DNA of 64,000 bases, taken from IMG/VR virus record IMGVR_UViG_3300025141_016157, positions 1 to 64,000 of that record; one strand, 5' to 3'. Source of the stretch: a virus. The translations under genes and the position numbers were made by a program. Of this stretch, positions 15,474 to 49,788 are shown one piece after another; the stretch's first letter is position 1; the number at the start of each line of letters is the position of its first letter. The notes beneath the pieces are model-generated. The model made no database searches, was not told where the DNA came from, and saw nothing but the letters and a program-made list of their open reading frames with translations.

Positions 15474-17012
15474 ATGTATAGAATATTAACAGCAAGCAAA
15501 GACACTTATATTACAGACAAGATAATAAGCAATACATTTAGAGCAACTGATGCCAATGTTGGAAGGGCTTCTACTCTTGATATATTCAAACTATATGGCG
15601 AGTCATCGTCAGGATCAGCTGAGAATCCATACGAAATATCTCGTGCATTAGTAAAGTTTGATTTAACCCCGTTAAAAGAGCTAACATCTTCTCTGTTAGA
15701 TATTGGATCATCAACTTTTAAGGCATATCTTAGACTTTCAGATGTCTATGGTGGTCAAACCACGCCAGATAATTTTAAGCTAATAGTATTTCCACTATCA
15801 AAGTCATTTGACGAAGGCATGGGAAGAAACATAGTCGACTATTCAGATCTAGATTCTTGTAACTATGTTACAGCATCTGTTTCATCTGGTACACCAGATC
15901 TGTGGTTTACAAGCGGGGCAATGAAACAAGGGCTTTTAGGATCAGATGATATTGATATAATATCAAGTGGAAATCTAAATGACGGGGAGGGCCTAGTTTA
16001 TCTCTGGAAAGAACAAACATTCTCAACAGGAGAGGAAGATCTCAAAGTAGACGTAACAAATATAATATCTGGTACAATCGCTGGGCAAATACCAGATCAC
16101 GGATTTAGAATATCGTACTCTGGATCATTTGAAACTGATCAGAAGACCTATTTTGTAAAGAGATTCGCATCACTACAGACAGATAATTATATTAAAAAAC
16201 CATCTCTTATAGTTCACTATGACGATACTACACAGGATCATCACGGATCATTCTTCTTTGACATGACTGGAAGTCTATTTTTAAATAACTCTGCACGCGG
16301 AGCAAGAAGAAATTTAGTAACTGACAAAGGAGGCACATCTCTTACAGGTGAAAATTGCTTGCATTTAAAACTTATAAGCGGATCTTCTGAAGCTGGTACG
16401 CTTTTTGAAAAAACAATAGTGGGATCACAACACACTATTGGCGATAACAATATACCCGGAATATACTCTGCAACATTCTCAATAAGTGAATTTGAAGATT
16501 CTACTTTGACTTCTCACATAAGGAGAGCACATAGCGCAAGCTTTACTACAATATGGACACCTACAGACGAATCGTTTGCATTTCTTACTTCTTCTCTAGT
16601 TATAAATAGAACTACAAGAACATCATTTGACAATGATGCTGATAGAATTATAGTAAAAGTTACAAATATGAAATCAGTATATAAGAAAAACGATAAAGTT
16701 AGATTCAGGGTATTTGCAGAAGATATAGATAGAAAAATAGTTTTTAAAAAGTTGCCTCTTGAAACAAAAAGCCAGATTTTTACAAAAATGTATTACAGGA
16801 TTAGAGATTCAATATCACAAGAAATAATAATACCATTTGAAAAAAGCAGTAATTCGACCCTTTGTTCAACTGACAGTGATGGAATGTATTTTGATTTTTA
16901 TATGGACTCTCTTGCACCAGGAAGATTATATACAATAGAATTTCAAATAAACAAAAATGGTGAAGACTTACTCTTTGTAGATGCAGCGACAAAGTTTAGG
17001 CTAGAAGGTTGA
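15474..17012 (+). CDS. virion structural protein (DNRLRE-like beta domain plus C-terminal beta-rich domain)
   Basis: ASKDTYI...SRALVKFDL...KPSLIVHYDD pattern; located in the baseplate operon. Confidence 0.55.
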   Translation: MYRILTASKDTYITDKIISNTFRATDANVGRASTLDIFKLYGESSSGSAENPYEISRALVKFDLTPLKELTSSLLDIGSSTFKAYLRLSDVYGGQTTPDNFKLIVFPLSKSFDEGMGRNIVDYSDLDSCNYVTASVSSGTPDLWFTSGAMKQGLLGSDDIDIISSGNLNDGEGLVYLWKEQTFSTGEEDLKVDVTNIISGTIAGQIPDHGFRISYSGSFETDQKTYFVKRFASLQTDNYIKKPSLIVHYDDTTQDHHGSFFFDMTGSLFLNNSARGARRNLVTDKGGTSLTGENCLHLKLISGSSEAGTLFEKTIVGSQHTIGDNNIPGIYSATFSISEFEDSTLTSHIRRAHSASFTTIWTPTDESFAFLTSSLVINRTTRTSFDNDADRIIVKVTNMKSVYKKNDKVRFRVFAEDIDRKIVFKKLPLETKSQIFTKMYYRIRDSISQEIIIPFEKSSNSTLCSTDSDGMYFDFYMDSLAPGRLYTIEFQINKNGEDLLFVDAATKFRLEG

Positions 17013-17013
17013 T

Positions 17014-20000
17014 ATGTCTACAAGCAAGACTAAAAAAATAGTTTCAAAGAGACCCTTACTATTTTCAAAAGGTTCCTCTACAGATTCGTCTAGCAAAAAA
17101 GATATAATCTTAAAGCTATTAAAAGATACAAACTTTGGATCTACATCATCGTTTAGATGGGACGCTCCAGGTGTCGGAATTAAAAATACACAGCAAGTAA
17201 GCGTTGACTGGTCAAAGCTAGAGAATCATGTATTTTTTGATTCAGCACAGTCTAAGATAAATGTTGCATTTGATATTATAGTAAATAGCTTTCCCTTCGA
17301 TGGGTCTAAAAAAGAAGTTGAAGCATTCTTTGACAGTCTTACGGGATATGAAAACTATATTTTTTCGAGATTTCCAAAATATGTAGGATATCTATCGCTT
17401 TCTGGCGCACGCGGTGTAGCACCGGACACAGATGGAAACTGGATAGAAGTTTTTGACTCTACTGGCTATGTTTTTCCAAACTTTTCATCAAAAAGAGATG
17501 GATCTTCACCAATTGATTTTTCAATAAACCCTTTTACAATTGAATGTCAACTATATGTTCCAGATTTGGAAAATGATAATCAGATACTTTTTCAAAAGAG
17601 AGACTCGTTTAAAAATGGTGTAACTGTAGCTCTAAGCTCGTCAGCTTCAACTAGTGAGTGCGACATTGTTTTCTCTATATGTTCAGGATCATCTTTTCTT
17701 CTTGCATCAGCCTCTGTTGAAAAGGGTAGGTTCAATCATATTGCAAATATTTACGATAGAGATATAGACAATAAGGCAAAGATATACGTTAATTCTAAGC
17801 TTGTGATGACATCTTCAAAAGCAGAGATATTTAAATCTCTAAGTTTCAATAGGGCATCTTTCATGATAGGCTCTGGATCATCATTTGCCGTTGATAGTAG
17901 AATGTTGCCTGGCGGAGAAGTTGAATTTTCGCCAAGAGAGACAATGTCAGGATCCATAGATGAGCTTAGGGTTTTCCATAGCATAAGATCTAAATTATCA
18001 CAGGAAAAAAATTCACAAAGATCAATATACGCAACGCCTGATTTAAAGCTCTATTTTAAGTTTAATGAGGCTACTGGATCGTATAGGCCAGAAGGGGTCG
18101 TCCTGGATTCGTCAGGAAATTCATTGCATAGTATTATAAAGAATTTTAAAGAAAACCCATGCAGAGTCACAGGATCTGTAGAAAGCCCGATGGAGTATGA
18201 AAAAACTAGCCTTTCTCCAATACTCTTCCCAGATCATTATTTAGTGAGAAGACTAAATGAACAACTACTATACTCTGGCTCAAGATACGATAGGGTGAAC
18301 CCTAATATTATTACGAGACTTGTGCCACCACACTTGTTTCTCGAAGGTCAGAGTGAAGAGGGGTTTGAAACACTTCAGGGGCAATTATTCAATCCTATAA
18401 AAGGACAGTCAATTCCTGGGTCACTTGAAATGGGATCAGCTCAGCGGTTAACTGCTTTTCTTTTCATATACGCAAAAATGTTTGATGAAATCAAGATAGT
18501 TCTAGATACAATATCTAATTTTTTACATGTTAGTTATGATGAGTTTGATACTGTACCTGATCAATTAATACCTGCTGTTGCAAAATATTACGGAATAGAT
18601 TTACCAAGTCTGTTTTCAAATTCAACTATATTTGAGTTTATTGACGGGGAGGGCTTGGGTGATACATATGCATACAGTAGATCACTAAGAGATCTTCAAA
18701 ATCAACTCTGGAAAAGATTTTTAATAAATCTTCCGTATGTCCTTAAGTCAAAAGGAACGCTTCAAAGCGTTAAGTCTACAATTAGATCATTTGGAATAAA
18801 TCCAGATAGCCTTATGAACATAAGAGAGTTTGGGGGACCAACAAAAAAATCTCTTGAAAGTCTCCGACAAAATAGGATAAAGGATATTCCGCTTCTTGAT
18901 TTCTCATCAAGCATGGGAACAGTTCCGGGAACAGAAGACTATCAAGGGTTTGCCTCTAATATTCCACACATTGTGTCTCCGTTCTTAAGCGGATCAAGAA
19001 TAGAGCCTGGATACCCTAATATCCAGGGTGAGTTTGTTAATCGAACAGAGAAAATGAGGAATGGTATTTCAAATAACGCTGAAGATGGATTACACACGTC
19101 TGGGTCATTTACATATGAGGCATATTATAGATTTCTAAGGCCAACCAGGACGGGATATAAACATCAAGCTTCTCAAAGCCTAGCTAGGATTTGTGTTACT
19201 GGGTCAAGTATTGATAAAGGTGCAGTTCTTGCAAACCTTGTCGCATGCTCTGGATCGAACTCTTCTCTTAGGCTGTTTGTTAGATCTTCACTATTTCCAA
19301 CAACACCGGGAATAAAGCTAGAGCTGACTGGAACTTCAATTTTTAACGGAGACCCGTGGTATGTTTCTTTTGGAAGAACTAGAAGTGATGATATTATAAC
19401 ATCTCTTTCAAAAAGCTATTTATCGCCGATGATATCAACAAATGGATCTTCTTCATATTTTCTTAGATGCTCTAGGGTTGCAAATGGTAGAATTGTAGAA
19501 TCACATGAAACAAAATCTTTTCTAAAGGACTTTCTAACAACAACTGGATTTGAGAATATGCTTACATCTTATAATGTAAGCGGAACATTTATTGTAATAG
19601 GTTCTCAAAGTCTCGGTGATTACGGGGCAAGATTTCTAAATGATACGTCGCTTGGATCAGAAACAGGCTTTGACACAGAGGACAATATACCCGCCAAGGT
19701 AACAGATTTTTCCGGACAGGTTGGAAAAATAAGATTCTGGTCTACTGACCTAGGGAAAAGAGAGGCAAAAGATCATGCACTCAATCCTGCATCTATCGGT
19801 AGTAAAAATCCAAATATAAATTACAACTTTGTATCTCAGAATACAGGTTCTTTTCAAAGGGCAAGGCTGGATATTCAACTAGAGCAACCCGCAACATCGT
19901 CAGATAGTAGCGGTGAAATTTCATTAACAAACTTTACACAGACAGTAGGAAACTTTTCTGGACGTGCATTTGAACCAGACGTTGATGTTATAAAGCATGA

Positions 20001-20586
20001 AACAATGTTCTACTCTATGCTTTCACCAAAGTTTGATCTTTCTCAAACTGATGACAAGATAAGGGTAAGAAGTTATAATAACATTGAAAATATAGAAAAG
20101 AGTGATTATGCATCTTCTGCCCCTGTATACGAAGTTAGAAGGTCTGAGGAGCCAGACGACGACAATAGATTTGCCATAGAGTTTTCATCAGTAAAAGCTC
20201 TTGACGAAGATATAATGTCAATATTCTCTGATTTAATATTTTTTGACAACGCGATTGGAAAGCCGAGTTTGATATTCGATGAAATATATCCTGATCTTGA
20301 TCAGGCGAGAAAAGTTTATTTTAGAAGATTATTTTCAAAACCAGAGTTCCAGAATTACTTTTCTATGTTTAAGTGGTTTAATAATTCATTCGGTTATATT
20401 ATTGAACAGCTTATTCCAAGAAATACTAAGTTTTTAGGTATTGATTTCGTATATGAGTCACATCCTCTTGAAAGAAATAGATTTAGATATTTATTTGATG
20501 ATATATACCTTCTTTCAAATGAGAGATCATTTGATAGAGGCGACATTTTACTATCACAGTTTGTCGGTGATATCAAAAAATTCTAG
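17014..20586 (+). CDS. large baseplate wedge protein with LamG/concanavalin-like domains
   Basis: FTIECQL...FNHIA..YD...KIYVN...SGSIDELRVF LamG signature; NLPYVLKSKGTLQSVKSTIRSFG resembles P2 gpI/T4 gp7-type wedge motifs. Confidence 0.65.
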   Translation: MSTSKTKKIVSKRPLLFSKGSSTDSSSKKDIILKLLKDTNFGSTSSFRWDAPGVGIKNTQQVSVDWSKLENHVFFDSAQSKINVAFDIIVNSFPFDGSKKEVEAFFDSLTGYENYIFSRFPKYVGYLSLSGARGVAPDTDGNWIEVFDSTGYVFPNFSSKRDGSSPIDFSINPFTIECQLYVPDLENDNQILFQKRDSFKNGVTVALSSSASTSECDIVFSICSGSSFLLASASVEKGRFNHIANIYDRDIDNKAKIYVNSKLVMTSSKAEIFKSLSFNRASFMIGSGSSFAVDSRMLPGGEVEFSPRETMSGSIDELRVFHSIRSKLSQEKNSQRSIYATPDLKLYFKFNEATGSYRPEGVVLDSSGNSLHSIIKNFKENPCRVTGSVESPMEYEKTSLSPILFPDHYLVRRLNEQLLYSGSRYDRVNPNIITRLVPPHLFLEGQSEEGFETLQGQLFNPIKGQSIPGSLEMGSAQRLTAFLFIYAKMFDEIKIVLDTISNFLHVSYDEFDTVPDQLIPAVAKYYGIDLPSLFSNSTIFEFIDGEGLGDTYAYSRSLRDLQNQLWKRFLINLPYVLKSKGTLQSVKSTIRSFGINPDSLMNIREFGGPTKKSLESLRQNRIKDIPLLDFSSSMGTVPGTEDYQGFASNIPHIVSPFLSGSRIEPGYPNIQGEFVNRTEKMRNGISNNAEDGLHTSGSFTYEAYYRFLRPTRTGYKHQASQSLARICVTGSSIDKGAVLANLVACSGSNSSLRLFVRSSLFPTTPGIKLELTGTSIFNGDPWYVSFGRTRSDDIITSLSKSYLSPMISTNGSSSYFLRCSRVANGRIVESHETKSFLKDFLTTTGFENMLTSYNVSGTFIVIGSQSLGDYGARFLNDTSLGSETGFDTEDNIPAKVTDFSGQVGKIRFWSTDLGKREAKDHALNPASIGSKNPNINYNFVSQNTGSFQRARLDIQLEQPATSSDSSGEISLTNFTQTVGNFSGRAFEPDVDVIKHETMFYSMLSPKFDLSQTDDKIRVRSYNNIENIEKSDYASSAPVYEVRRSEEPDDDNRFAIEFSSVKALDEDIMSIFSDLIFFDNAIGKPSLIFDEIYPDLDQARKVYFRRLFSKPEFQNYFSMFKWFNNSFGYIIEQLIPRNTKFLGIDFVYESHPLERNRFRYLFDDIYLLSNERSFDRGDILLSQFVGDIKKF

Positions 20587-20597
20587 AGGTTTTTAAA

Positions 20598-21458
20598 GTG
20601 CCAATACAACCATTTATAGATAGACCAAAAATTGACTTAGATAGGGCATATTATATGCCAGAAGTTGTTACAGGAAGCCTAGCATCGGGTGATATTACAA
20701 AGTATAAACAGGGTGTAAGCATAAGATCTACGTCAGATGCTTTGAAAAAACTGACTCCAATGCTCAGCTCTATGGGCCTTCCTGAAAATGTTAGAAGTTC
20801 TATTGACTATAGCCTTGAGAAGACTACATATGGATATGTCCAGCTATTTATAGACTCTGACAATGAAATAGATGTTGCACCATATAATGATATAGCAACT
20901 TTAAATGATCCCGTTAAGTTTCTTCAAGATGATGGAATTACTGCTTATCCGCAAATAATGCTTAGCCCTAACTGGCTAGATCCCGGAATGATGAACGGTA
21001 TTATAGAACCTTTGCAAGTAAGAGGTACTCTTCCCGGTGCGTCTATTGAATCTCCATTCGTTGCACATACAATTAGATCGTCATTAATGTCTTCACCCGT
21101 CCAGTATGAAAGATATTTTAATCAAGATGGAGGAGATAAGTTTAATAATGCTGTTCCGTTTATAGATTCACAAGATTTGGCAATGACAGGGGATGGTCTT
21201 AAATTATCAACTGATGGAATTGGAGATTTTGGAACAAAACCAATAAGTCCATTTGATGATTATACTACAGTTATACACAACTCACTTAAGTCTCAAAGTG
21301 AGTCACTCTTTAACGATTTTATCGGAGTTGGAATAATTTCTAATAAAGTATCTTCAACTTTTAACTATGACTCGGAGAGGACAGTGATTATTGGCGAGAC
21401 AGGAATAAGAAATGTAACGGGTATTGACTCTATTGCATTCGGGGGCTTGATGAGATAA
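20598..21458 (+). CDS. hypothetical virion protein
   Basis: GAGG RBS before GTG; located in the structural operon. Confidence 0.6.
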   Translation: MPIQPFIDRPKIDLDRAYYMPEVVTGSLASGDITKYKQGVSIRSTSDALKKLTPMLSSMGLPENVRSSIDYSLEKTTYGYVQLFIDSDNEIDVAPYNDIATLNDPVKFLQDDGITAYPQIMLSPNWLDPGMMNGIIEPLQVRGTLPGASIESPFVAHTIRSSLMSSPVQYERYFNQDGGDKFNNAVPFIDSQDLAMTGDGLKLSTDGIGDFGTKPISPFDDYTTVIHNSLKSQSESLFNDFIGVGIISNKVSSTFNYDSERTVIIGETGIRNVTGIDSIAFGGLMR

Positions 21459-24400
21459 TGCCTGTTTACTTAAAAAAACGAGACTATACCCTAAAGAAAC
21501 ATTTTGTTGGTGGCGGTGGTGTCTATAATCTTCAAGATGCTAGAGATCTAGTGCTTTGGGCGCGATTAAAAGAATCCCCAGAAGACTCAAGCGTAAATAG
21601 TATTACTATATCTTATACGGGCTCACCAACTACTTCAAATCCATTAATTCCGAACAAATCGGTGTGTAGAATAGGAGAGCTTCCAGCAGCAGAATTTCCT
21701 TCATCATCTGAGTTTGCCGCAGTAGCTGCATCGTCTCACTTAGATTTTTCCGGAGAGGTGCCCTTTACTATATCAGGGTGGGTCAAGCTGGAGACATCTG
21801 GAACCAAGACTATTGTATCAATGCCCAATGTTGCAAATTCAGATGCAGGATGGTGGCTACTTATTAAAAATTCTTCACTACAACTTTCCCTCGGGGGTAC
21901 GGGCGGAGGTGCAATTATATCATCCCAGCTTCCCGGTGCAATTCCACCAGATGTGTGGAGTCACTTTGCAGCAACGTATGATGGAAGGGGTCACTATACG
22001 GGAATTAATCTTTACGTAAATGGTAGAAAAGCAATAACCAAGAACGACTCTGCAGGAACATTTACATCACTTGATGCTGATGGATCAAGATCATTAAAGA
22101 TAGGCATAGGGTGGAATTCTACTATCCACCCCCTACAAGATAGTCTATCCGAAGTTTCAATATGGAAAAAAGAGCTTTCTAAGTCTGCTGTAACAGCGCT
22201 TTATCATGCAACTGCCGGAAGGTATGTGGCAAAATCAGGAATAGTATCACTTCCGAATAGAGTAAGACTTAGAGATGTTGATAGCCTAACAGGTTCTTAC
22301 CCAACACATCTAAGAACAACTGGCTTTTCTGGAAGCCTCAAGGGAAACGGGAAGCAGATTTTTAACGATACAAAAACTCAAATATTTAAATCAATACCAG
22401 ATGCAATATTTCCTCTTGTAAATGATAAAGAAAATTTAGAAAATGCAAATTTAACAAACCTAATTGCGTCACCAAACCAAAATTCAAACTTAGTTGGGAA
22501 AGGAATTGCTGGTCCGTTTTTATCAACTCAAGGATTTAGAAGTCATATTGATTATGGAATGGAGAATCATGCATTTGATGAAACAAGAGTCTCACTTTTG
22601 CCAAAAGAAGTGCACTTTTATGCATCAGGAACATCTGGAAGTATCTATAGCGGATTTTCATCACCCCTAAGGGACAAGATAGCGATATCTATCCCGATAA
22701 ATAACTCTACTGAGAAGATGATTACTAGGTTTAATACAAAGGAGCTTCCGTGGTTCGACTCAGAGAACGAGGGTATCTATCCACCAGGTTTTCAATCAAC
22801 TGGATTTTACTATTATAACTTTTCAGGTTCAAGGTGGGAAGACAAGGGGTTTGAATACTCAAGCTTTAGCGGTGACGCTATAAACACTATGTTCTATTAT
22901 AGCGACACACCTATGGGATATAATACAATATATCTAGGTCGGCAAATTCCTCGATGGGATGGCACTCTTCTTCCAGCATTTGTTGGCGGGGGACCGAAAA
23001 TGGAAAAGTGGACAAAGATGCAACAATTTAAAATGTCTGATCATTCAGGAGTTGTTATTGATTCAAAAGCTGATCCCCAGCGATTCAAATCTGAAGATCC
23101 CTATGCTATCCTTACAGCATCTTTAGCATATGACAAGATAGGTGCACCAACAGTTACTGGATTGGCACCTGCAAATTCAAGATATCATGCTACTAGTAGT
23201 CAGCTAGTACCTCTTTCTGACTACATTGCAAGACCATTTCTTTTAGAAAAGGCTGTACTGGAAATACCTGTAATTGTTCAAAGACAAAGGGGCGACTACA
23301 AATATAACGATCCTAACACCCGATACTACGAATCTTCAAGGGATATCGATAATTATACGTTTTTCCTGTATAGGCAGCGCAGAGCTCCCGGCGCAGAAAG
23401 AGATGTGCATAGAGATGAAAATGGATCTACTAGAATGCTTGTTGCAAGTGGATGTGCATCTTTCTACAATAGCAATGCATTTTCCGGCAGGGTTCCAGAG
23501 ATGATTAAGTCACGAGGTCTCCCGCATGGGCCAGCATTTTCTCATGACTGGGATGTATCTGCCAATGTTGAATCAGGGCTTGCAGGAGCACCGCTTATAA
23601 CAGCATTTACAGGAACAATCAGGATAGAGATGGAAGCAGCTGTTGGAAATGGACAACCGCTAGGCAGCTCAAGATTTCCAATAATTTCTACATCTGTTGC
23701 TGCCCCATCAACATCATCGCTAGCAATGCCAAATGGGTTCAGAAGTGTATGTACACAAGATTTTTGGTGTGGCGGAGTCCAAAATTACTCTGGATCAACC
23801 CCATATAATAAATCAGTATCTTCTGACCAGGCAGTCTCTCTTCCAATTAATTCAAGTAACTTTATAGGTGATATCAAAAACACTGTTGTTGCAGCATTGT
23901 CACCGTACGGAATAGGTCAGACAAGCACTCCTTCAACATGCTCAATGGGTCCCAATAATTTTTCAATATTTAGAAGCGAAAGATCACTTCTTCCTCTTTC
24001 ACTAGGAACGTCATTGTGGAATGAACCAAGGAAAAGAGTTCACGGCGACACAAACACACAGCCAGCTCATGATGGAAAGCTAGCACCATACCCAAAAGAA
24101 TCACTTGGAATCATAGGATATACAAATATGTACTATCCGACTACTGCAGGAACTTTATTTAGAATCTATCCTACATTTTTTGGACCATATGCAGCTTCTC
24201 AAACATCCCCATTCCTATTTTTCCCTGGCGACGATCTTGTTCTCGGGATAGATGCAGGAATATCAATGCTCCAGGCATCAGGATCAAGTGCTAATTTAGA
24301 TTATATAGCTATAGGGGCTGATGCTGGATCTGACCTTGGCTTCTATTCTGCTAGCGCGGCAGATAGAGAGAACTTTGGATGTATGTCTGGCTCATTTATG

Positions 24401-25720
24401 AAAATACTTACAGGGGAAGCAAATATCACGTTGTTTGGATCTGAAGTAAAAGAAAATCATGAGATGCTTCTATCTACAAATCAAAATTTAACATCAAATG
24501 CAATTCACGAGGCAATTGGAACTGAAAGGGTTCTGGATCAGTTTGAAATAATGTCAAGACTTGATATGTCAGGATCATACCTTGACAGACATGTTGTAGG
24601 TGCAATGGTAAAAAGTATGAATACCTCTAATGCCCTGTCAATTGATGGCGGATTAAACTGGGCCGGTGATGGAATACAGTTCGACGATGCTGTAGCCACC
24701 GTCTCGCCTGCAAGAAGAGTTCTAGGATTGCATTCAAAAAGATATATCAAAGTACCATCTGCATATGGAGCAGCAGCGTCCAAGGATTCTCGCAAAATAT
24801 TTGGGATAACAGAGTTTCCCGTTTCTGATCCAGAAACAGGAACACCGCCCTGGATGAAGTGGCCAATCTCGGGGTGGGAGATCACTAGAGATCCTGGGTT
24901 TATAACACCCGGTCCCGCAACTGTTATAGGAGCACCAATAAACTCTCTTCAGAGATTTATCACTCTAAATACTGTGGATGAAATATTCTATGATAGTATG
25001 GAACCCTCTATTACAGATCTAGTATCACGATCAGAGGGAATGATATACATTCCAAACGGAGTTCATAATGCAACTGCTGCTGGAAAGATTCCAATGCTTG
25101 ATTTTTCTGCAACATCATCTGTTGACTATGTATATAGAACCAATCCACAGAGATATATGCAACAAAACTTTGTTCTTAGGTTGCATGCAACAAAAGAGGG
25201 GCACATCTCACCTTCTACTATTTATCTAGATTTTTATAATAAAAATAGTTTATCAGCGCAAAGAATAAGAAGGATTTCAGTTTTTAATCGTGGATTTTTT
25301 ATTGAAACTGGAAAAGCTCCGCTAACACCGACCTCGGTGGATAGAGAGTTTGATTACGGAAAAGTTCATGGCCAAGGAGCATACGGAACAAGATATGGAA
25401 TGATCTCACCGACAATTAAAAAATCAAAATCTATATTTAGAATGAACAGATACGGACAGTTTCGTGATATGCTTGAGCAAAGAAATGATACAAAATATTT
25501 TGGAATGCTTGACAATGAGACAAGAACACTAGTTGGAGACGGTCCAATACAAGTAAAATTTGTTAACCAGTCAGATGGTGTAACTCCTGTGGATCCATAT
25601 TCCACAGATTCATTTAACTTCTGGCCAGAATATTCATCTTCATGCCCATATAATGAAAGTGATCCCACCACAGTCGATAGTGATGCACACCTAGACTATA
25701 TACTGGAATTATTGAGCTAG
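21458..25720 (+). CDS. large virion protein with N-terminal LamG domain
   Basis: PFTISGWVK...WSHFAATYDG...LYVNG...LSEVSIWKKELS. Confidence 0.7.
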   Translation: MPVYLKKRDYTLKKHFVGGGGVYNLQDARDLVLWARLKESPEDSSVNSITISYTGSPTTSNPLIPNKSVCRIGELPAAEFPSSSEFAAVAASSHLDFSGEVPFTISGWVKLETSGTKTIVSMPNVANSDAGWWLLIKNSSLQLSLGGTGGGAIISSQLPGAIPPDVWSHFAATYDGRGHYTGINLYVNGRKAITKNDSAGTFTSLDADGSRSLKIGIGWNSTIHPLQDSLSEVSIWKKELSKSAVTALYHATAGRYVAKSGIVSLPNRVRLRDVDSLTGSYPTHLRTTGFSGSLKGNGKQIFNDTKTQIFKSIPDAIFPLVNDKENLENANLTNLIASPNQNSNLVGKGIAGPFLSTQGFRSHIDYGMENHAFDETRVSLLPKEVHFYASGTSGSIYSGFSSPLRDKIAISIPINNSTEKMITRFNTKELPWFDSENEGIYPPGFQSTGFYYYNFSGSRWEDKGFEYSSFSGDAINTMFYYSDTPMGYNTIYLGRQIPRWDGTLLPAFVGGGPKMEKWTKMQQFKMSDHSGVVIDSKADPQRFKSEDPYAILTASLAYDKIGAPTVTGLAPANSRYHATSSQLVPLSDYIARPFLLEKAVLEIPVIVQRQRGDYKYNDPNTRYYESSRDIDNYTFFLYRQRRAPGAERDVHRDENGSTRMLVASGCASFYNSNAFSGRVPEMIKSRGLPHGPAFSHDWDVSANVESGLAGAPLITAFTGTIRIEMEAAVGNGQPLGSSRFPIISTSVAAPSTSSLAMPNGFRSVCTQDFWCGGVQNYSGSTPYNKSVSSDQAVSLPINSSNFIGDIKNTVVAALSPYGIGQTSTPSTCSMGPNNFSIFRSERSLLPLSLGTSLWNEPRKRVHGDTNTQPAHDGKLAPYPKESLGIIGYTNMYYPTTAGTLFRIYPTFFGPYAASQTSPFLFFPGDDLVLGIDAGISMLQASGSSANLDYIAIGADAGSDLGFYSASAADRENFGCMSGSFMKILTGEANITLFGSEVKENHEMLLSTNQNLTSNAIHEAIGTERVLDQFEIMSRLDMSGSYLDRHVVGAMVKSMNTSNALSIDGGLNWAGDGIQFDDAVATVSPARRVLGLHSKRYIKVPSAYGAAASKDSRKIFGITEFPVSDPETGTPPWMKWPISGWEITRDPGFITPGPATVIGAPINSLQRFITLNTVDEIFYDSMEPSITDLVSRSEGMIYIPNGVHNATAAGKIPMLDFSATSSVDYVYRTNPQRYMQQNFVLRLHATKEGHISPSTIYLDFYNKNSLSAQRIRRISVFNRGFFIETGKAPLTPTSVDREFDYGKVHGQGAYGTRYGMISPTIKKSKSIFRMNRYGQFRDMLEQRNDTKYFGMLDNETRTLVGDGPIQVKFVNQSDGVTPVDPYSTDSFNFWPEYSSSCPYNESDPTTVDSDAHLDYILELLS

Positions 25721-35001: not shown

Positions 35002-36162
35002 GTGTCAGGTATTCTCGATTCAAAGACTAGAATTTTAGATGCAGTAATAACCCAAGAGGGAAAGCGCCAGATAGCAAATGGTGGACTAAGGGCAGTTTAT
35101 GCAACTGTTTCTGATAAGTCATCTTATTATGAATTTAGTGAAGCTAGTGGTTCATCAGATGCATCTAAAAGGATATATTTTGAATCACCAATAGAAGATA
35201 TAAACGATTCAATAATTATGGAATCTGATGATTCAGGAAAGCTACTTGGATATCCTGTGCAGGGCTCAGAGTTTTATAGCACTGACGGGGTTGTAACTGG
35301 AAGATCATCTGTAAGCGGAACACTAACTTATGCTACAACGGGTTCAGTTTCTGGATTTAATAGTCTTGCAGACGGCATAGTAAGCTCATCTATTGAAAGA
35401 TTTAAAAATTTATATACAATAGGGACAAGAGATGCAGGAGAGCCAGATAGCCTGCAGATGAAAATCTATCCATCGTCGTATAGCTTTACAATGAATAACA
35501 AGTATCCTTTTACAAAAGGTCCAACATCAGCAACAAGCAATGTTGACTTTATTGATCCTTTATTTTTTGATGATATGTTAGCAAATGTTGAGAATTTTAA
35601 ATATCTCCCTCCCTTAAAAAACCCGCCAGCGGAAACATCTGGAGATGATACAGATCAGCCAAGAAGCAATATGTTAGGATTGTATACAAAGTTTCAGAGA
35701 CCCGAACCCCTAGATTTACAAAAGATATTAAATCATATGAATATCTTTACAGATCTTTCAGGAAGCACTGCGATGGAAGGAGATCCAGATGCAGTTTATG
35801 ATACAAGCGAAACATCAGATGACAATCCGTATACAAATGAAAATACATCTGGTGACTACGGTGTAAGAGAGTCAGAAAGAGACGGATCTTCTCTAAATCT
35901 ATCTCTAGATCAGCTTCCAAGAGAGAGAGTTTCTGTTTTTTTTGAAACAACATCTAGAACTAACAATCTTATGATGCAAATGTTTGAGCTTGATTCAAGC
36001 TCTTCGAAGTTAAAAAAGCTAGACGTAATAGATTTTGGAAGTGTTTATGATGAAAACGACTCTATCCATCCTGAAAAACAGATATTTTTTGCAGGTAAGA
36101 TATTTATAAACTCAATCGGCTTACCTGCATTTGTCAAATTATTTACAATTATAATGGATTAA
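35002..36162 (+). CDS. virion protein, N-terminally paralogous to 45307
   Basis: MSGILDSKTRILDAVITQEGKRQIANG vs MGFLDHSTNNIILDAVLTDKGRQLLANG. Confidence 0.65.
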   Translation: MSGILDSKTRILDAVITQEGKRQIANGGLRAVYATVSDKSSYYEFSEASGSSDASKRIYFESPIEDINDSIIMESDDSGKLLGYPVQGSEFYSTDGVVTGRSSVSGTLTYATTGSVSGFNSLADGIVSSSIERFKNLYTIGTRDAGEPDSLQMKIYPSSYSFTMNNKYPFTKGPTSATSNVDFIDPLFFDDMLANVENFKYLPPLKNPPAETSGDDTDQPRSNMLGLYTKFQRPEPLDLQKILNHMNIFTDLSGSTAMEGDPDAVYDTSETSDDNPYTNENTSGDYGVRESERDGSSLNLSLDQLPRERVSVFFETTSRTNNLMMQMFELDSSSSKLKKLDVIDFGSVYDENDSIHPEKQIFFAGKIFINSIGLPAFVKLFTIIMD

Positions 36163-45243: not shown

Positions 45244-45306
45244 GTTAATGATTAGATTTACAGAAGTTATTTATCGTAATATATAATGATGTAAGGAGTT
45301 TATAAA

Positions 45307-46014: not shown

Positions 46015-46029
46015 GAGGAAAAGAAGTAA

Positions 46030-47286
46030 GTGAGTACATTTAAACAGTTAAACGCAGCAACAGATATAAAGTCTTCAAGATCAGTTCTTAACCAGCTTGT
46101 TGATATAATTGAAGAAAATATTTCAGGAAGCTTTTATAGAAAAAAATATGAAGTATTTGTAACAGGGGGCGTTGGACCAGGTGTGACATCGTCACTCTTT
46201 CAAACATGCTTTGATCAAGACTATACATTGCAAACTGCAAACGCATTTATGGATATGTCAGTTGGATTATTTTCAGGATCAGACCTTGTATTTAGTGCAT
46301 CTACCGGTATAGACACAAGCGGAAAAGTTTTGTTTCAATCTACATCTATAATGATGAGAGAGAAGGTATCCGGATATAAGCAATTTGCACAATTACTTCT
46401 AGGGAATGCAGAAAGTAGGTTTACAGCACCGTTTGCAGGAACAACTCTTGAAGAGGATAATATTGATGAAGCTCTATTTTTAAACTTTAAGAGATTATTT
46501 TCAAGAGATAAGATAAAGAGAGATTCTTTTGCAATGAGATTTTATAGGTCTGCATCTCACAGCCTTGATATCCATAAGCCAAATTTATGGGAAACATCGG
46601 AAAGTGGATCAGAGATTTTCTCAGATGTAGGATCTTCTGCAAATGTCCAGTCTAGCTTTGGCGGCGAGGTTGGAAATATTGTCAATGCATCTAATACTGG
46701 TGAAACTGTAGGATTGCTTTTTTATCAAAAGGGTATTGCAGTTCTAGATGTCAAGAAGATAATATCGGGATCAGAACACGTATCGGGAACTATATCTGCT
46801 GTAACTAATGCTACTCTTCCGTCAGGATTGGGCAAAGTTTGCCTTGGATACGGGCGCACTACAGCTACGGTCCCAAGCGACGAAATACCTGGCACAAATG
46901 CATATGCCAGGTTCATACCAGATCTTCTCACCTCAGCATCAGTTGATGATATAGTTGATCATTTTGCATCTTGCAGGATGTCATCTGGGTCAAACACAGC
47001 AATTACATTTCAAAACTTAACTAATATTAACTCTACTCTTGTTTTTTGCAGAGCAACGGCAGATGAATTCAACTATTCATCAAATCCAACTTATGTCAAT
47101 CCAGCTACTAATAAGATTAGAGTTATAGAATCAGGAAACGAGTCTACCCAGCATGCATTCTCATATATTACTACTGTTGGTCTCTACGACGAAAATGATA
47201 ATTTAATAGCAGTTGCAAAGACGTCTAGACCGATAGAGAAGAACGATGAGAAGGATATAACTATTAGGGTAAGGCTTGACTTCTAG
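46030..47286 (+). CDS. baseplate/tail-collar-associated protein
   Basis: C-terminal FNYSSNPTY...YITTVGLYDENDNLIAVAK...IRVRLDF. Confidence 0.65.
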   Translation: MSTFKQLNAATDIKSSRSVLNQLVDIIEENISGSFYRKKYEVFVTGGVGPGVTSSLFQTCFDQDYTLQTANAFMDMSVGLFSGSDLVFSASTGIDTSGKVLFQSTSIMMREKVSGYKQFAQLLLGNAESRFTAPFAGTTLEEDNIDEALFLNFKRLFSRDKIKRDSFAMRFYRSASHSLDIHKPNLWETSESGSEIFSDVGSSANVQSSFGGEVGNIVNASNTGETVGLLFYQKGIAVLDVKKIISGSEHVSGTISAVTNATLPSGLGKVCLGYGRTTATVPSDEIPGTNAYARFIPDLLTSASVDDIVDHFASCRMSSGSNTAITFQNLTNINSTLVFCRATADEFNYSSNPTYVNPATNKIRVIESGNESTQHAFSYITTVGLYDENDNLIAVAKTSRPIEKNDEKDITIRVRLDF

Positions 47287-47295
47287 AGTCTTGTC

Positions 47296-49788
47296 ATGTC
47301 AATTGTTAAAATACCACCAGAGAGAATTGAAAGATTTTCACTTACACTTCACCCAGAAATAGATTATCTAAGTTCTAGCATAGTTATAAGTTCGCTAGGC
47401 GTAAGACCGGGAACATCAGGATCAATTCCGCTTAGAGCTAGACCAAGCCCGCTTATAAAAGAGCTTGTTGCACCAGGTGTTGGTAGACAGGTAGGAAATG
47501 ACATTAATGCTGGGCCGTCTGCAAGACCATTTAACTCACTAGACTTTGCATCTCTAATAAGCCTTAAATACGCAGTTGATAAAACAGCTGAAGCCAACTT
47601 AGAAAACACAACTGTTGATGTAAAAAGCTATGTTGAAAATTATATGTCAGGTGTTAATCATTCGCCTCAGCCAATTTCAAGCACAAAGAAGATGTATATT
47701 ACAAGGTTCGACCCTCCGTTTTCTTTAAATGATGTAGCTGTAGAAAAGGCAGTAATAAGAAATAATCTAATGACATTTTATGAATCAAGGTATGATTTAT
47801 GCGAAATGTCTTACACAAATTATCATAATTTAAACTTTATGTCTGCCCCGAATGCACCTGGATCTCCTGAAGTTGGGTCTGTCGGTGCAATACCAAATGA
47901 CTCTGCTATAATATATCAAAACTTTGCAACTGGCTCTGGAATGCTTAGACCGTACTCACCAAGCGGATCATTCTCATTTGATTTTTATATAAATCCAAAA
48001 TATCATAATGAGCATCCTGATCTCGAATTCAAAGCTGGTACAATACTACACCTCTCTTCTACGTTTTGTGTATCCCTAGTCTCAGGAACAAGTAGAGATT
48101 CAAGCGGTCTTTTAGACGGCTATAGGTTGATGCTACAGCTTAGTCATAGTGCTGATATATCACCAAGCACTGTTGGGTATGGGTCAACATCTGTTTACCC
48201 AAGAGATTTAATTTTTCTTTCTGATGACAATTCTTTAAGTAGAAATAAGTGGCACCACTGCACAATTCGGTGGGGAACAGATATGCTAAACAATGGAACG
48301 GGAAGCATTATTATTGATAAAAAACCTCATGATTTTGCATGTCCTTCTGCATCCATTATGCCCCCTCCACATGTATCAAATGCTGCTCTTATGGTTGGAA
48401 ATTACTATGAAGGGTCAGATAATGAAGCAAAATTCTTTAACAAGTCTACTCTTTCAGAGGGTGTGTATCCAACATTAGATTTTGGAACTGGATTCAACGT
48501 TGATCCTGAGTGTATCCTTCGACACCCGCTAAATGCAGAAATACATGAAATAAAAATGTTCCAAAGATTTGTATCACTTAGTGAAATAGAATCATTTTCA
48601 AAAACATCACCCACTAATATGAATGATTTATCATTCTATGTACCACCAATGTTTCTCCCAGATACTAGAAAAAGAGAAATGCTTATAACACCTTTCCAGC
48701 AACAAGATACAAAATCAACTAAACCGTTCAATGAAATATTTTCGTTTGGTGTAGGCGGATTTATTATGAATCTTGAAAATCATGTTAAAGATTTTGCAAC
48801 AAGTAATAGGCCAAGATGTTTAAATTTAACAGCTTCTACGATAGATACAACAGTCCAGGATATTACTGCTACTGAATACTGTTATCATACAGGATCTATA
48901 AAAAAGAGAAATTTGACAATTTTACCATGCGATAATGGATATTTTAAACCAAATTATTCAATAATTGCAACTTCGTCAGATAATTCTCCATCAAGATCTA
49001 GAAAGCATGGGGGTTCAGATCTAAGTGTTATATCTTTGGAAAATATGGTTCCAGAGGGCAAGATTTTTAAAGGGCTTCCAACCACTACAGTTAGTGATAT
49101 GAATGCAGTTCTTGACGATGATGCATCAACACTTCCAGATGATCTAAGCGCAACATCAATAGCAGGTCTTGTTGCAGGTGTAACACCCGAGAGTATGGGT
49201 GGTGATTCTGGTCCAATACTTACAATTGCTCAGAGAACTAGAGATTTGTCATCAAATGAAATTTGCTTCTTTGACATTTCTAATATTTACTATGGCGATC
49301 AAATTCTAGAGGATACGCTTTATGTATCTGACCCGTCTTTAACTGGGTCAGACGGAAAAATAAAAATGACCCTTAGGGATAACGGAAGAGGGGGCATGTA
49401 CAGATGCGATTCAGATGGCCCTCACCCCAAGTGGTCAAATGTGGGAAATGCTCTTTACAAAGAAGGTGTTGCAATAATTAAATCTCCACCGCTTACTTTT
49501 TTTGGAAAAGATTGCTTTGAGATAAAAATGAAAGGAGAGCAGAATGTTCATGTTTCAATAGTAAATGTTCCTCTCGCGTCTGGAATGTTCAACTCTTCTA
49601 GCAATCCGTCATTTAAGATACTTTCAGCATCTGGATCCCCCTCTGATACAGGAAAATCTTTCGTGTATATTGATTCTTTAAATATTCACGATGAAAATCT
49701 GAATGTAATTGCAAGAACATCATTTGCGCAACCGATAAAGAAAAGAGTTGAAGATAACATGCTTATTAGATTTAAAATGGATTTCTAA
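47296..49788 (+). CDS. LamG-like virion protein, C-terminally paralogous to 46030
   Basis: KWHHCTIRW...EIHEIKMF; C-terminal FNSSSNPSF...YIDSLNIHDENLNVIAR...IRFKMDF. Confidence 0.65.
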   Translation: MSIVKIPPERIERFSLTLHPEIDYLSSSIVISSLGVRPGTSGSIPLRARPSPLIKELVAPGVGRQVGNDINAGPSARPFNSLDFASLISLKYAVDKTAEANLENTTVDVKSYVENYMSGVNHSPQPISSTKKMYITRFDPPFSLNDVAVEKAVIRNNLMTFYESRYDLCEMSYTNYHNLNFMSAPNAPGSPEVGSVGAIPNDSAIIYQNFATGSGMLRPYSPSGSFSFDFYINPKYHNEHPDLEFKAGTILHLSSTFCVSLVSGTSRDSSGLLDGYRLMLQLSHSADISPSTVGYGSTSVYPRDLIFLSDDNSLSRNKWHHCTIRWGTDMLNNGTGSIIIDKKPHDFACPSASIMPPPHVSNAALMVGNYYEGSDNEAKFFNKSTLSEGVYPTLDFGTGFNVDPECILRHPLNAEIHEIKMFQRFVSLSEIESFSKTSPTNMNDLSFYVPPMFLPDTRKREMLITPFQQQDTKSTKPFNEIFSFGVGGFIMNLENHVKDFATSNRPRCLNLTASTIDTTVQDITATEYCYHTGSIKKRNLTILPCDNGYFKPNYSIIATSSDNSPSRSRKHGGSDLSVISLENMVPEGKIFKGLPTTTVSDMNAVLDDDASTLPDDLSATSIAGLVAGVTPESMGGDSGPILTIAQRTRDLSSNEICFFDISNIYYGDQILEDTLYVSDPSLTGSDGKIKMTLRDNGRGGMYRCDSDGPHPKWSNVGNALYKEGVAIIKSPPLTFFGKDCFEIKMKGEQNVHVSIVNVPLASGMFNSSSNPSFKILSASGSPSDTGKSFVYIDSLNIHDENLNVIARTSFAQPIKKRVEDNMLIRFKMDF

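What the first reader, a model, noticed from the sequence alone, without database searches (positions are those of the whole stretch)
15474..49788. [S/T]-G-S tripeptide is common in tail, baseplate and fibre proteins: candidate sequon for phage-encoded virion O-glycosylation
Seen (hand counts of [ST]GS): 15474 has 4, 17014 has 11, 21458 has 9, 25724 has 4, 28152 has 11, 30155 has 4, 35002 has 3, 46030 has 5 and 47296 has 7. That is about 58 sites in about 7000 aa, plus many [ST]AS, SGT and SGA variants. Mre11-Rad50 (1044 aa), terminase and portal contain none. As an internal control, GS dipeptides are preceded by S/T in 11/22 (17014), 9/14 (21458), 11/22 (28152), 5/6 (46030) and 7/12 (47296) cases, versus 0/8 in Mre11-Rad50. 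The motif is spread through unrelated folds (LamG, wedge, fibre), so it is not a single repeat. Established: some phages O-glycosylate virion proteins using their own glycosyltransferases. Inference: this is a short acceptor sequon on exposed virion proteins, read by the GTs at 1007, 6720 and 7972 and fed by the 2-5115 sugar pathway. The result would be a glycan-coated tail apparatus (shielding, stability or adhesion).
Basis: partly seen in the sequence, partly recalled or inferred. Interest (0 to 1): 0.85.

Follow-up and report, generated by a model that had tools for sequence, protein, structure and literature searches.

The report
Ser/Thr-Gly-Ser tag on phage tail proteins
The outer tail, baseplate, fibre and sheath proteins of this large uncultured marine phage and its relatives carry Ser/Thr-Gly-Ser three to six times more often than chance, and because one relative has lost both this excess and one of two paired phage sugar-transferase genes, the tag is probably a sugar-attachment site, though no chemistry shows it.

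Summary
Every hand count was reproduced. In the virion block of the 160-kb record, SGS (52 vs 16.8 expected) and TGS (37 vs 11.1) rank first and second of all 8000 tripeptides. The rest of the genome shows no excess.

- The signal is at the protein level: codons vary freely at conserved sites.
- It is not the general Gly-turn class: DGS, NGS, SGD and SGN are not enriched.
- It is kept in orthologues of nine metagenomic relatives, in two families of 120 homologues each, and in the cultured relatives RM378, immuto and Mel-JY01.
- T4 lacks it; a T4-like cyanophage and a Ralstonia jumbo phage show only a weak, generic excess.
- Portal, terminase, tail tube and inner wedge have none.

All enriched phages whose sequence covers the region carry the adjacent GT4 pair (6720 and 7972). 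LR756508, nested inside the clade, keeps only the first enzyme and has lost the enrichment. In Mel-JY01 a 7972-like domain is fused to a true TibC homologue; TibC glycosylates Ser in S-G-x loops.

I put the sequon reading at about 45%. The link to the 2-5115 sugar genes and to ORF 1007 is not supported. The scan found the same motif and GT pair earlier on other DNA (e1-5362810).

The parts
6720..7961 (+). GT4a: family-4 (GT-B) glycosyltransferase, first of the conserved adjacent pair
   Evidence: Pfam Glycos_transf_1 scores 42.6 bits against a cut-off of 26.4. The EX7E motif E284/E292 is invariant in 10 lineage members. It is 62-77% identical in 7 relatives. It is present in immuto, Mel-JY01, RM378, G012 and also LR756508.
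7972..9147 (+). GT4b: second family-4 glycosyltransferase; candidate enzyme that reads the motif
   Evidence: Pfam Glycos_transf_1 scores 32.6 bits against a cut-off of 26.4. EX7E motif at E276/E284. Present in every enriched genome whose sequence covers the region. Absent from LR756508 by profile HMM and six-frame search. It is the one strongly conserved immuto protein shared with Mel-JY01 and this genome's own group of metagenomic relatives (including this record) but missing in LR756508. A GT4b-like domain is fused to a TibC homologue in Mel-JY01.
15474..17012 (+). Peripheral baseplate protein (CBM-like jelly roll plus Ig/FN3-like domains), 4 [ST]GS
   Evidence: 4 vs 0.85 expected. Orthologues carry 4-9. 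A family of 120 homologues averages 6.1 vs 0.94. AF2 model has pLDDT 81; Foldseek finds CBMs 8wab and 7vbo.
17014..20586 (+). 1190-aa LamG-domain baseplate/fibre protein, 11 [ST]GS
   Evidence: 11 vs 1.9 expected, z 6.6. Pfam Laminin_G_3. Orthologues carry 7-18.
21458..25720 (+). 1420-aa LamG-domain protein, 9 [ST]GS
   Evidence: 9 vs 2.5 expected. Pfam Laminin_G_3.
25724..28144 (+). 806-aa fibre-like protein; 4 sites, not enriched in this genome
   Evidence: 4 vs 3.1 expected, p 0.39. Best matches in relatives are enriched, for example 37 vs 8.5, 18 vs 5.8 and 14 vs 4.8.
28152..29801 (+). 549-aa fibre protein, 11 [ST]GS, often as hydrophobic-x-hydrophobic-[ST]GS-hydrophobic
   Evidence: 11 vs 2.7 expected. 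Sequence contexts.
30155..32797 (+). 880-aa Gly-rich fibre protein; 4 sites, not enriched
   Evidence: 4 vs 2.75 expected, p 0.30.
35002..36162 (+). 386-aa virion-block protein, weak enrichment
   Evidence: 3 vs 0.74 expected, p 0.04.
46030..47286 (+). 418-aa tail protein of a very large marine family, 5 [ST]GS, 4 of them held in place
   Evidence: 5 vs 0.77 expected. 120 homologues average 4.9 vs 0.77, and four sites are kept in 103-112 of 120. In the AF2 model (pLDDT 67.5) the sites lie in loops beside secondary-structure elements.
47296..49788 (+). 830-aa tail protein, 7 [ST]GS
   Evidence: 7 vs 1.2 expected. Orthologues carry 5-10, with several columns conserved and S/T exchanged.
13622..15472 (+). 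gp6-like inner baseplate wedge: internal control without enrichment
   Evidence: PHROG baseplate wedge. 1 vs 1.0 expected; orthologues carry 0-1.
55531..59222 (+). Large terminase and portal: controls with no site
   Evidence: PHROGs terminase and portal. 0 sites here and almost none in nine relatives.
124..5115 (+). Nucleotide-sugar genes (RmlA, PIG-L deacetylase, WbqC-like, truncated NDP-sugar dehydrogenase, SDR epimerase); link to the motif not shown
   Evidence: Pfam and NCBIfam. Only 3393 and 4225 recur in relatives; 124, 2133 have no match and 1007, 2776 only weak ones.

Best explanation
[S/T]-G-S, usually preceded by a hydrophobic residue, is a short motif under selection on the outward-facing virion proteins of one phage lineage. 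These proteins are the peripheral baseplate proteins, fibres, the extra sheath domains, the extension of the head protein and the neck adaptor. The lineage is the RM378 / immuto / Mel-JY01 / marine jumbo 'far-T4' clade.

The most likely mechanism is this. In the infected cell's cytoplasm a phage-encoded retaining GT4 enzyme, GT4b (7972), recognises the tripeptide at strand ends and loops of virion proteins. GT4b probably works with its conserved neighbour GT4a (6720). It puts a sugar on a Ser/Thr hydroxyl, so the tail and fibres end up glycan-coated.

Shown: the enrichment, its specificity, its conservation, its turnover, its phyletic link to GT4b, and that both enzymes keep catalytic motifs.

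Inferred: that the motif is modified at all, which residue is the acceptor, which sugar is used, and what the coat does (shielding, stability or adhesion).
For: 1. Strength and specificity. SGS and TGS rank first and second of 8000 tripeptides in the virion block, with no excess in the other 34,499 aa. DGS, NGS, SGD and SGN are not enriched, whereas a T4-like cyanophage and a Ralstonia jumbo phage show only an even 1.7x excess of the whole [DNST]G[DNST] class.

2. Protein-level selection. GGATC lies in frame 0 in 102 of 119 cases. At 13 conserved sites all Gly codons occur, and both Ser codon families occur at 9 of 13.

3. Conserved, yet turning over. Within the group of metagenomic relatives closest to this genome, sites are held in place with S/T exchange. 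Between subclades most sites differ while density is kept. This is what selection for the tag itself would give, not a fixed fold element.

4. Varied structural setting. In the 15474 model (pLDDT 81) the family's sites lie in flexible loops, at strand ends and even inside strands, so they are not one turn type.

5. Peripheral versus internal proteins. Peripheral proteins have 83 vs 22.0 expected. Wedge, tube, hub, portal, terminase, protease and scaffold-like protein together have 2 vs 2.1.

6. Lineage pattern (whole genomes, observed/expected): T4 19/27.7, S-MbCM100 79/57, RsoM2USA 105/71.6, LR756508 118/85.3; Mel-JY01 134/55, immuto 117/47.6, RM378 52/19.

7. Co-variation with GT4b. LR756508 is sister to Mel-JY01 plus immuto inside the clade (support 100/99). 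It has GT4a but no GT4b, and the enrichment is gone: sheath 0, 15474-like 0. GT4b is the one strongly conserved gene with this pattern that this genome also carries. The complete relative G012 has the pair and a 4.4x enrichment.

8. Link to protein glycosylation. Mel-JY01 encodes a GT4b-like domain fused to a true TibC homologue (E 1e-69 to PDB 4rap), just after a collagen-like ORF and a structural protein with 13 [ST]GS. TibC heptosylates Ser in N-S-G-G and V-S-G-T of TibA (PMC4358343).

9. A T4-style DNA target cannot explain the whole lineage. The ThyA family is absent from Mel-JY01 and RM378. This genome's candidate cytosine-modifying ORF has no homologue in Mel-JY01, immuto, RM378 or LR756508.
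Against: - No glycan has been observed on any of these phages, and no paper on it was found.
- The co-variation rests on one gain and one loss. LR756508 is a 484-kb phage that differs in many other ways.
- The GT pair always follows a nuclease gene, and in RM378 it sits among replication genes.
- GT4-like enzymes with the same closest PDB relatives (BshA, MshA, sucrose-phosphate synthase) glycosylate 5-hydroxycytosine in phage DNA (PMC13326640).
- The TibC fusion occurs only in Mel-JY01 among the genomes sampled. Its target may be the neighbouring collagen-like fibre, not the scattered sites.
- The extension-versus-core split in sheath and head protein is not significant once composition is allowed for (P 0.22).
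- 25724 and 30155 are fibre proteins without enrichment in this genome.
Confidence: 0.45

Rival explanations
1. The motif is a lineage-specific structural habit with no modification: a favoured way to cap beta-strands and make tight loops in these Ser-rich beta-sandwich and fibre proteins. The GT4 pair then does something unrelated, such as glycosylating phage DNA or a host envelope glycan.
For: The motif follows a hydrophobic residue in 57% of cases against a 32% background, and a hydrophobic residue often follows it. About three quarters of the 15474-family sites are at strand/loop junctions or in loops, and all five 46030 sites are in loops next to secondary-structure elements. Many sites sit among conserved neighbours. 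The GT pair is next to a nuclease, and in RM378 next to replication genes. GT4-like DNA glycosyltransferases exist (PMC13326640). The window's dehydrogenase plus SDR genes, and a second epimerase beside the candidate cytosine-modifying ORF, resemble a UDP-pentose route.
Against: A general structural need should show up in T4, whose baseplate, sheath and fibres have 9 sites against 12-15 expected. It should also enrich DGS and NGS, which it does not. Sites arise at new positions in each subclade while density is kept. Gly at these columns is often replaced by A or S in relatives, so a Gly-only backbone geometry is not required. The enrichment vanished in LR756508 although the folds are kept. 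ThyA-family enzymes are absent from Mel-JY01 and RM378, which keep the GT pair.
Confidence: 0.33
2. The motif is read by something other than GT4b. Candidates are another post-translational modification (phosphorylation, or another transferase encoded in the missing 42% of the genome), an assembly chaperone, or a TibC-type enzyme that only some members carry.
For: Selection acts on the tripeptide itself. The record is only 58% complete. Mel-JY01 shows that more than one protein glycosyltransferase type exists in the lineage.
Against: No kinase or other candidate reader shares the phyletic pattern. Among immuto proteins shared with Mel-JY01 and this genome's own group of metagenomic relatives but absent from LR756508, the only other well-conserved protein (228 aa) has no homologue in this genome or its closest relative. 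TibC homologues are absent from immuto, RM378, G012 and all sampled relatives.
Confidence: 0.12
3. The excess is a by-product of DNA-level or compositional bias, for example selection for GGATC/GATC or local Ser/Gly-rich stretches, with no meaning at the protein level.
For: GS is encoded GGA-TCN more often than codon usage predicts, and GATC is 1.5x over-represented genome-wide.
Against: GGATC is almost confined to frame 0. About 45% of sites use other codon pairs. Codons vary freely at conserved sites, including TCN/AGY switches. Shuffles within 40-residue blocks and a Markov-1 model leave the excess intact.
Confidence: 0.03

Closest known systems
Bacterial autotransporter heptosyltransferases (BAHT: TibC-TibA, Aah-AIDA-I)
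   Same: They glycosylate many Ser residues in the cytoplasm on a beta-rich surface protein. The mapped TibA sites are N-S-G-G and V-S-G-T, that is Ser-Gly after a strand (PMC4358343). The enzyme gene lies next to its substrate gene. A true TibC homologue fused to a GT4b-like domain occurs in the relative Mel-JY01, beside SGS-rich virion genes.
   Different: This window and most of the lineage have no TibC/GT9 homologue. The candidate enzymes are GT4 (retaining, EX7E) and lack the iron finger. The targets are many unrelated virion proteins, not one beta-helix. Thr is accepted at position 1 of the motif, whereas TibC modified only Ser.
Mycobacteriophage virion glycosylation (Freeman et al. 2023, as described in PMC12619734)
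   Same: Phage-encoded glycosyltransferases modify the phage's own structural proteins, giving a glycan-coated virion.
   Different: There the glycans sit at the C-termini of capsid and tail-tube subunits. Here the candidate sites are dispersed internal tripeptides on baseplate, fibre and sheath proteins, and the tail tube has none. Hosts and enzymes are unrelated. The modification has been shown there and not here.
GtfA-GtfB O-GlcNAc transferase of serine-rich-repeat adhesins (from my own knowledge, not tested here)
   Same: A pair of adjacent GT-B proteins, one of them GT4, that glycosylates Ser in the cytoplasm.
   Different: The substrates are long low-complexity Ser-rich repeats. No sequence relation to 6720 or 7972 was seen. 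Whether GT4a and GT4b bind each other was not tested.
Phage DNA glycosyltransferases (T4 alpha/beta-gt; RB69 and DLP3 5-hydroxycytosine arabinosyltransferases, PMC13326640)
   Same: GT-B/GT4-like phage enzymes whose nearest solved relatives are BshA, MshA and sucrose-phosphate synthase, as for 6720. They come with phage-encoded NDP-sugar genes.
   Different: They need a hydroxylated pyrimidine made by a ThyA homologue encoded close by. Mel-JY01 and RM378 have no ThyA-family gene yet keep the pair. In this genome the candidate base-modifying ORF lies 112 kb away. This system would not explain the motif.

Membership tests
Glycosyltransferase family 4 (Pfam Glycos_transf_1, GT-B, retaining) | Match to the family profile above the curated threshold | tested here: met
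   6720 scores 42.6 bits and 7972 scores 32.6 bits against a cut-off of 26.4. ORF 1007 has no match in Pfam, NCBIfam or PDB sequences.
Glycosyltransferase family 4 (Pfam Glycos_transf_1, GT-B, retaining) | EX7E motif in the C-terminal Rossmann domain | tested here: met
   6720 has AEGFGLSTLES with E284 and E292, both invariant in 10 sequences. 7972 has GEGFGLPLLEA with E276 and E284; E276 is invariant.
BAHT (TibC/Aah) protein O-heptosyltransferases | TibC-type N-terminal barrel, GT9-like catalytic domain and four-Cys iron finger | tested here: not met
   No PF01075 or TibC-like match in this record, in immuto, RM378, LR756508 or 15 relatives. Met only by the C-terminal third of Mel-JY01 4750-8430 (E 1e-69 to 4rap).
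BAHT (TibC/Aah) protein O-heptosyltransferases | Acceptor Ser followed by Gly at the end of a short strand in a beta-rich substrate | tested here: inconclusive
   The motif has the form hydrophobic-[ST]-G-S, and the mapped TibA sites are NSGG and VSGT (PMC4358343). In the one good model, however, sites lie in loops, at junctions and inside strands. Exposure was not computable.
Phage virion glycosylation systems (mycobacteriophage type) | Glycan shown on virion proteins | not testable with these tools
   Needs glycoproteomics or glycostaining. No report was found for this lineage.
Phage virion glycosylation systems (mycobacteriophage type) | Sites at the C-termini of capsid and tail-tube subunits | tested here: not met
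   The tail tube has 0 sites. The head-protein sites are at residues 160, 211 and 372 of 670. Sites in tail proteins are dispersed.
Phage DNA hypermodification by glycosylation | ThyA-family hydroxymethylase or hydroxylase that makes the acceptor base | tested here: not met
   PF00303 is absent from this record, Mel-JY01 and RM378, while the same search found td and gene 42 in T4. The candidate ORF at 120585-121493 of the record (beyond the window) gave no Pfam or PDB sequence match and has no homologue in the cultured relatives. Its fold was not tested here.
Acceptor sequon in general | Enrichment on accessible proteins, depletion on buried ones, and co-variation with the enzyme | tested here: met
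   Peripheral proteins 83 vs 22.0; internal proteins 2 vs 2.1. Enrichment and GT4b were lost together in LR756508. This rests on one loss event only.

The most novel reading that the evidence does not exclude
GT4b, working with GT4a, founds a new family of cytoplasmic protein Ser/Thr O-glycosyltransferases. It reads the minimal tag [S/T]-G-S on folded virion proteins. An abundant, worldwide lineage of marine and freshwater far-T4 phages, with thousands of homologues in metagenomes, would then carry glycan-coated tails, sheaths and fibres. Site density would be kept by selection while positions turn over, as in the glycan shields of animal viruses.
Probability: 0.35. Interest if true: 0.8.

Novelty: new variant of a known kind. 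Interest (0 to 1): 0.6.

Why it matters
If the tag is a glycosylation site, self-glycosylation of virions would not be limited to a few actinobacteriophages. It would be a core trait of one of the most abundant groups of large aquatic phages. It would use a three-residue sequon and a GT4 enzyme pair not yet linked to protein modification.

A sugar coat on sheath, baseplate and fibres would bear on adsorption, stability, grazing and sinking of marine virus particles. A minimal sequon and its enzyme would also be useful tools for glyco-engineering.

The claim can be tested directly, because three clade members are in culture: Flavobacterium phage immuto, Rhodothermus phage RM378 and Microcystis phage Mel-JY01. 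If the sites prove unmodified, a strongly selected, lineage-specific tripeptide on phage surfaces still needs an explanation.

Tried and rejected
1. DNA-level motif (GGATC/GATC): rejected. The motif is frame-0 only and codons vary at conserved sites.
2. Local composition or dipeptide effects: rejected by block shuffles and a Markov-1 expectation.
3. One repeated paralogous domain: rejected. BLAST finds only the sheath pair and two short shared C-termini.
4. Generic Gly-turn class: rejected by the xGy table.
5. Megablast of the tail block against cultured phages: no match.
6. PHROGs and Pfam on most tail proteins: almost nothing.
7. AF2 model of 46030 was mediocre (pLDDT 67.5), and Foldseek against PDB gave no match.
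8. Extension versus core of sheath and head protein: 16 vs 1 sites, but not significant after composition (P 0.22).
9. GT presence in G002, G005, G009 and in 16 of the 18 LR756508-like contigs: uninformative, because the records are fragments.
10. Streptomyces phage Beuffert, which has a distantly similar GT pair: no clear enrichment (20 vs 11.3). It is too distant to count either way.
11. The kinase/mini-thymidylate-synthase note for the record's ORF 120585-121493: not reproducible by Pfam or PDB sequence search.
12. Neighbourhoods of TibC homologues in huge phages: one SG-rich neighbour in LR756501 and none in LR756504.
13. No complex prediction was run for GT4a with GT4b or for enzyme with substrate. 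A pass would not separate a protein target from a DNA target.

Full report
**What the window is.** The window is the first 64 kb of a 160,346-bp IMG/VR virus record that CheckV rates 58% complete, so the phage is a jumbo phage of roughly 275 kb. It encodes:
- a nucleotide-sugar block: RmlA, a PIG-L deacetylase, a WbqC-like protein, a truncated NDP-sugar dehydrogenase, an SDR epimerase and a QueF-like protein;
- a PD-(D/E)XK nuclease followed by two adjacent family-4 glycosyltransferases, 6720 (GT4a) and 7972 (GT4b);
- a gp6-like baseplate wedge and a long run of tail, baseplate and fibre genes with almost no database annotation;
- primase, an Mre11-Rad50 fusion, terminase and portal.

Just beyond the window lie the major head protein, a head-tail adaptor, two sheath paralogues of more than 1000 aa, the tail tube and a baseplate hub.

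The nearest cultured relatives are Microcystis phage Mel-JY01, Flavobacterium phage immuto and Rhodothermus phage RM378. The uncultured 484-kb phage LR756508 is about as close.

**The observation.**
- Against 2000 composition-preserving shuffles per protein, five proteins are strongly enriched: 17014, 21458, 28152, 46030 and 47296 (p <= 0.001).
- 15474 and 35002 are weakly enriched. 25724 and 30155 are not enriched in this genome.
- To guard against post-hoc choice I scanned all tripeptides over the virion block of the whole record (16,407 aa). SGS (52 vs 16.8) and TGS (37 vs 11.1) rank first and second, and first and third when shuffling is confined to 40-residue blocks.
- In the remaining 34,499 aa, SGS is 14 vs 16.8.
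- A first-order Markov expectation built from the SG/TG and GS dipeptides gives 49.7 against 89 observed.

**It is a protein-level signal.**
- GGATC, the commonest coding of Gly-Ser, lies in frame 0 in 102 of 119 cases.
- At 13 sites conserved among orthologues, all Gly codons occur. Both Ser codon families (TCN and AGY) occur at 9 of the 13.
- BLAST finds no paralogy that could spread one repeat. The only links are the two sheaths and two short shared C-termini.

**It is specific.**
- The residue before the motif is hydrophobic in 57% of cases, against 32% background, and is rarely charged.
- Among x-G-y tripeptides only SGS and TGS stand out, with weaker SGT, SGA and AGT. DGS, NGS, SGD and SGN are at expectation.
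- T4 structural proteins show no excess (9 vs 12.1 by composition, 15.4 by Markov). A T4-like cyanophage and a Ralstonia jumbo phage show an even 1.7x excess of the whole [DNST]G[DNST] class, as expected for ordinary turns.

**It is conserved, and it turns over.**
- Orthologues in nine metagenomic relatives (portal identity 57-80% in those records) keep the excess protein by protein. Their portal, terminase, Mre11-Rad50, wedge and tube orthologues stay at background.
- The 46030 family (120 homologues) averages 4.9 sites vs 0.77 expected, with four sites kept in 103-112 members. The 15474 family averages 6.1 vs 0.94.
- Within this group of relatives the sites are held in place, with S/T exchange at the first position.
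- Between subclades (this genome's group, Mel-JY01, immuto) most sites are at different aligned positions, yet the density is kept.
- At many columns SGS alternates with SAS, SSS or TSS, so a Gly-only backbone is not required.

**Where the sites are.**
- Peripheral proteins carry 83 sites vs 22.0 expected. These are the baseplate periphery, fibres, sheaths, head protein, adaptor and a small protein beside the head gene.
- Wedge, tube, hub, portal, terminase, protease and scaffold-like protein together carry 2 vs 2.1.
- In the sheaths and the head protein, 16 of 17 sites lie outside the conserved core. Composition alone predicts much of that split (P 0.22).
- The AlphaFold model of 15474 is good (pLDDT 81; CBM-like and Ig/FN3-like beta-sandwiches). 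Mapped on it, the family's sites lie in flexible loops, at strand/loop junctions and inside strands, close to the background mix with some excess in loops. So the sites are not one turn type.
- Solvent exposure could not be computed, because the tools do not return coordinates.

**The lineage pattern and the glycosyltransferases.** Whole-genome observed/expected values are:

| Phage | Observed / expected |
|---|---|
| T4 | 19 / 27.7 |
| S-MbCM100 | 79 / 57 |
| RsoM2USA | 105 / 71.6 |
| LR756508 | 118 / 85.3 (no single protein significant) |
| Mel-JY01 | 134 / 55 (37 of these in a collagen-like ORF) |
| immuto | 117 / 47.6 |
| RM378 | 52 / 19 |

- GT4a and GT4b are adjacent in this genome and in the relatives that cover the region: six of the nine fetched in full, while for G010 only GT4a was searched. 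They are also adjacent in immuto, Mel-JY01, RM378 (p013 and p014) and the complete 181-kb relative G012.
- Both keep the EX7E motif.
- LR756508 has GT4a (profile E 3e-93) but no GT4b, either among its ORFs or in six frames.
- A maximum-likelihood tree of terminase, portal and protease (1197 columns) places LR756508 as sister of Mel-JY01 plus immuto with 100/99 support. That is inside the clade bounded by RM378 and this genome's group. GT4b and the enrichment therefore seem to have been lost on the same branch.
- Of the 181 immuto proteins, six are shared with Mel-JY01 and this genome's group but missing from LR756508. Only two of these are well conserved: GT4b and a 228-aa protein that this genome itself lacks.
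- This amounts to one gain and one loss, so it is suggestive and not a statistical proof.

**A link to protein glycosylation.** Mel-JY01 gene 4750-8430 is annotated as a methyltransferase. It has three parts:
- an N-terminal GT4b-like domain (profile E 9e-29; BLAST E 7e-10 to 7972);
- a middle part;
- a C-terminal true TibC homologue (E 1e-69 to PDB 4rap, with the iron-finger cysteines aligned).

It directly follows a collagen-like ORF and a 'structural protein' with 13 [ST]GS in contexts such as YISGSII and FVSGSVN. TibC is a cytoplasmic protein O-heptosyltransferase. Its mapped sites in TibA are the serines of N-S-G-G and V-S-G-T (PMC4358343). This shows that Ser-Gly sites on virion-type proteins are glycosylated, or at least targeted, within the lineage, and that a GT4b-type domain works in that setting.

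The TibC part is found in Mel-JY01 only, and its target may be the collagen-like fibre. It therefore supports the idea without proving it for this genome.

**The main rival for the enzymes.**
- Phage GT4-like enzymes also glycosylate DNA. The 5-hydroxycytosine arabinosyltransferases of RB69 and DLP3 have the same nearest solved relatives as 6720: BshA, MshA and sucrose-phosphate synthase (PMC13326640).
- The GT pair here follows a nuclease, and in RM378 it lies among replication genes.
I could not confirm it by Pfam or PDB sequence search.
- That ORF has no homologue in Mel-JY01, immuto, RM378 or LR756508. ThyA-family genes are absent from Mel-JY01 and RM378, while the same search found T4's td and gene 42. 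A DNA target of that kind therefore cannot explain why the pair is conserved across the lineage. It remains possible in this genome.

- ORF 1007 shows no glycosyltransferase signature.
- Of the sugar genes, only 3393 and 4225 recur in relatives.
- The pathway at 124-3375 is therefore an accessory of this genome and not part of the conserved system.

**Verdict.**
A selected, lineage-specific surface tag that co-varies with GT4b is best explained as an O-glycosylation sequon (about 45%).
- The rivals are a structural habit with unrelated enzymes (about 33%), another reader or modification (about 12%) and artefact (about 3%).
- I found no paper that describes it.
- Earlier agents of this scan reached similar readings on other genomes. 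One found the same [S/T]-G-S motif with a shared pair of transferase genes in a marine T4-like phage (e1-5362810). These are AI notes and not independent evidence.
- It would be a new variant of a known kind: phage virion glycosylation, and BAHT-like Ser-Gly acceptor sites.

Noticed in passing
same record beyond the window: 70929-74153 and 74188-77313 (L231:8930-15314): Two tandem tail-sheath paralogues of 1074 and 1041 aa, 31% identical. Each has about 700 extra residues before the conserved sheath core. Both are kept in the seven relatives (of nine) whose sequence covers that region.
   Followed up: partly
same record beyond the window: 64199-66211 (L231:2200-4212): The major head protein has a 400-aa N-terminal extension before the HK97-like part. 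All three of its [ST]GS sites lie in the extension.
   Followed up: partly
L153:4747-8430 (Microcystis phage Mel-JY01, PP395634): A gene annotated 'methyltransferase FkbM' is a three-part enzyme: a GT4b-like domain, a middle part, and a true TibC homologue (E 1e-69 to PDB 4rap). The collagen-like ORF upstream (635-3052, + strand; Pfam Collagen 1e-53) is annotated in GenBank on the opposite strand.
   Followed up: partly
L334:13230-21203 (uncultured huge phage LR756501): A TibC homologue inside a 738-aa protein lies 4 kb from a 695-aa protein with SG[GSTA] 23 vs 5.7 expected. This may be another phage enzyme-substrate pair. The homologue in LR756504 has no such neighbour.
   Followed up: no
window 5112-5543: A QueF-like protein (Pfam QueF, 76 bits) sits inside the sugar operon. 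No other 7-deazaguanine pathway gene was seen in the window. It has an 85% identical orthologue in only one relative.
   Followed up: no
window 3393-4235: The nucleotide-sugar dehydrogenase begins at profile position 68 and lacks the C-terminal domain (280 aa instead of about 410). Orthologues in five relatives have the same length, so it may be a trimmed or split form.
   Followed up: no
whole record: Gly-Ser is encoded GGA-TCN more often than codon usage predicts, and GATC is about 1.5x over-represented genome-wide. This is the opposite of the GATC avoidance common in phages.
   Followed up: partly
same record beyond the window: 120585-125499 (L237:6586-11500): A cluster of an unannotated 302-aa P-loop ORF, an SDR epimerase paralogue of 4225, thymidine kinase, a DHH phosphoesterase, a Sulfotransfer_2 protein and dCMP deaminase.
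   Followed up: partly
same record beyond the window: 66398-66883 (L231:4399-4884): A 161-aa protein between the head and adaptor genes has 4 [ST]GS (0.5 expected) and no orthologue in nine relatives. It may be a strain-specific head decoration protein.
   Followed up: no
window 13000-49800 and record 64000-77400: The tripeptide AGT is also about three-fold enriched in the virion block (23 vs 6.2-7.6 expected), and SGA 2.4-fold. The tag may tolerate small residues.
   Followed up: no
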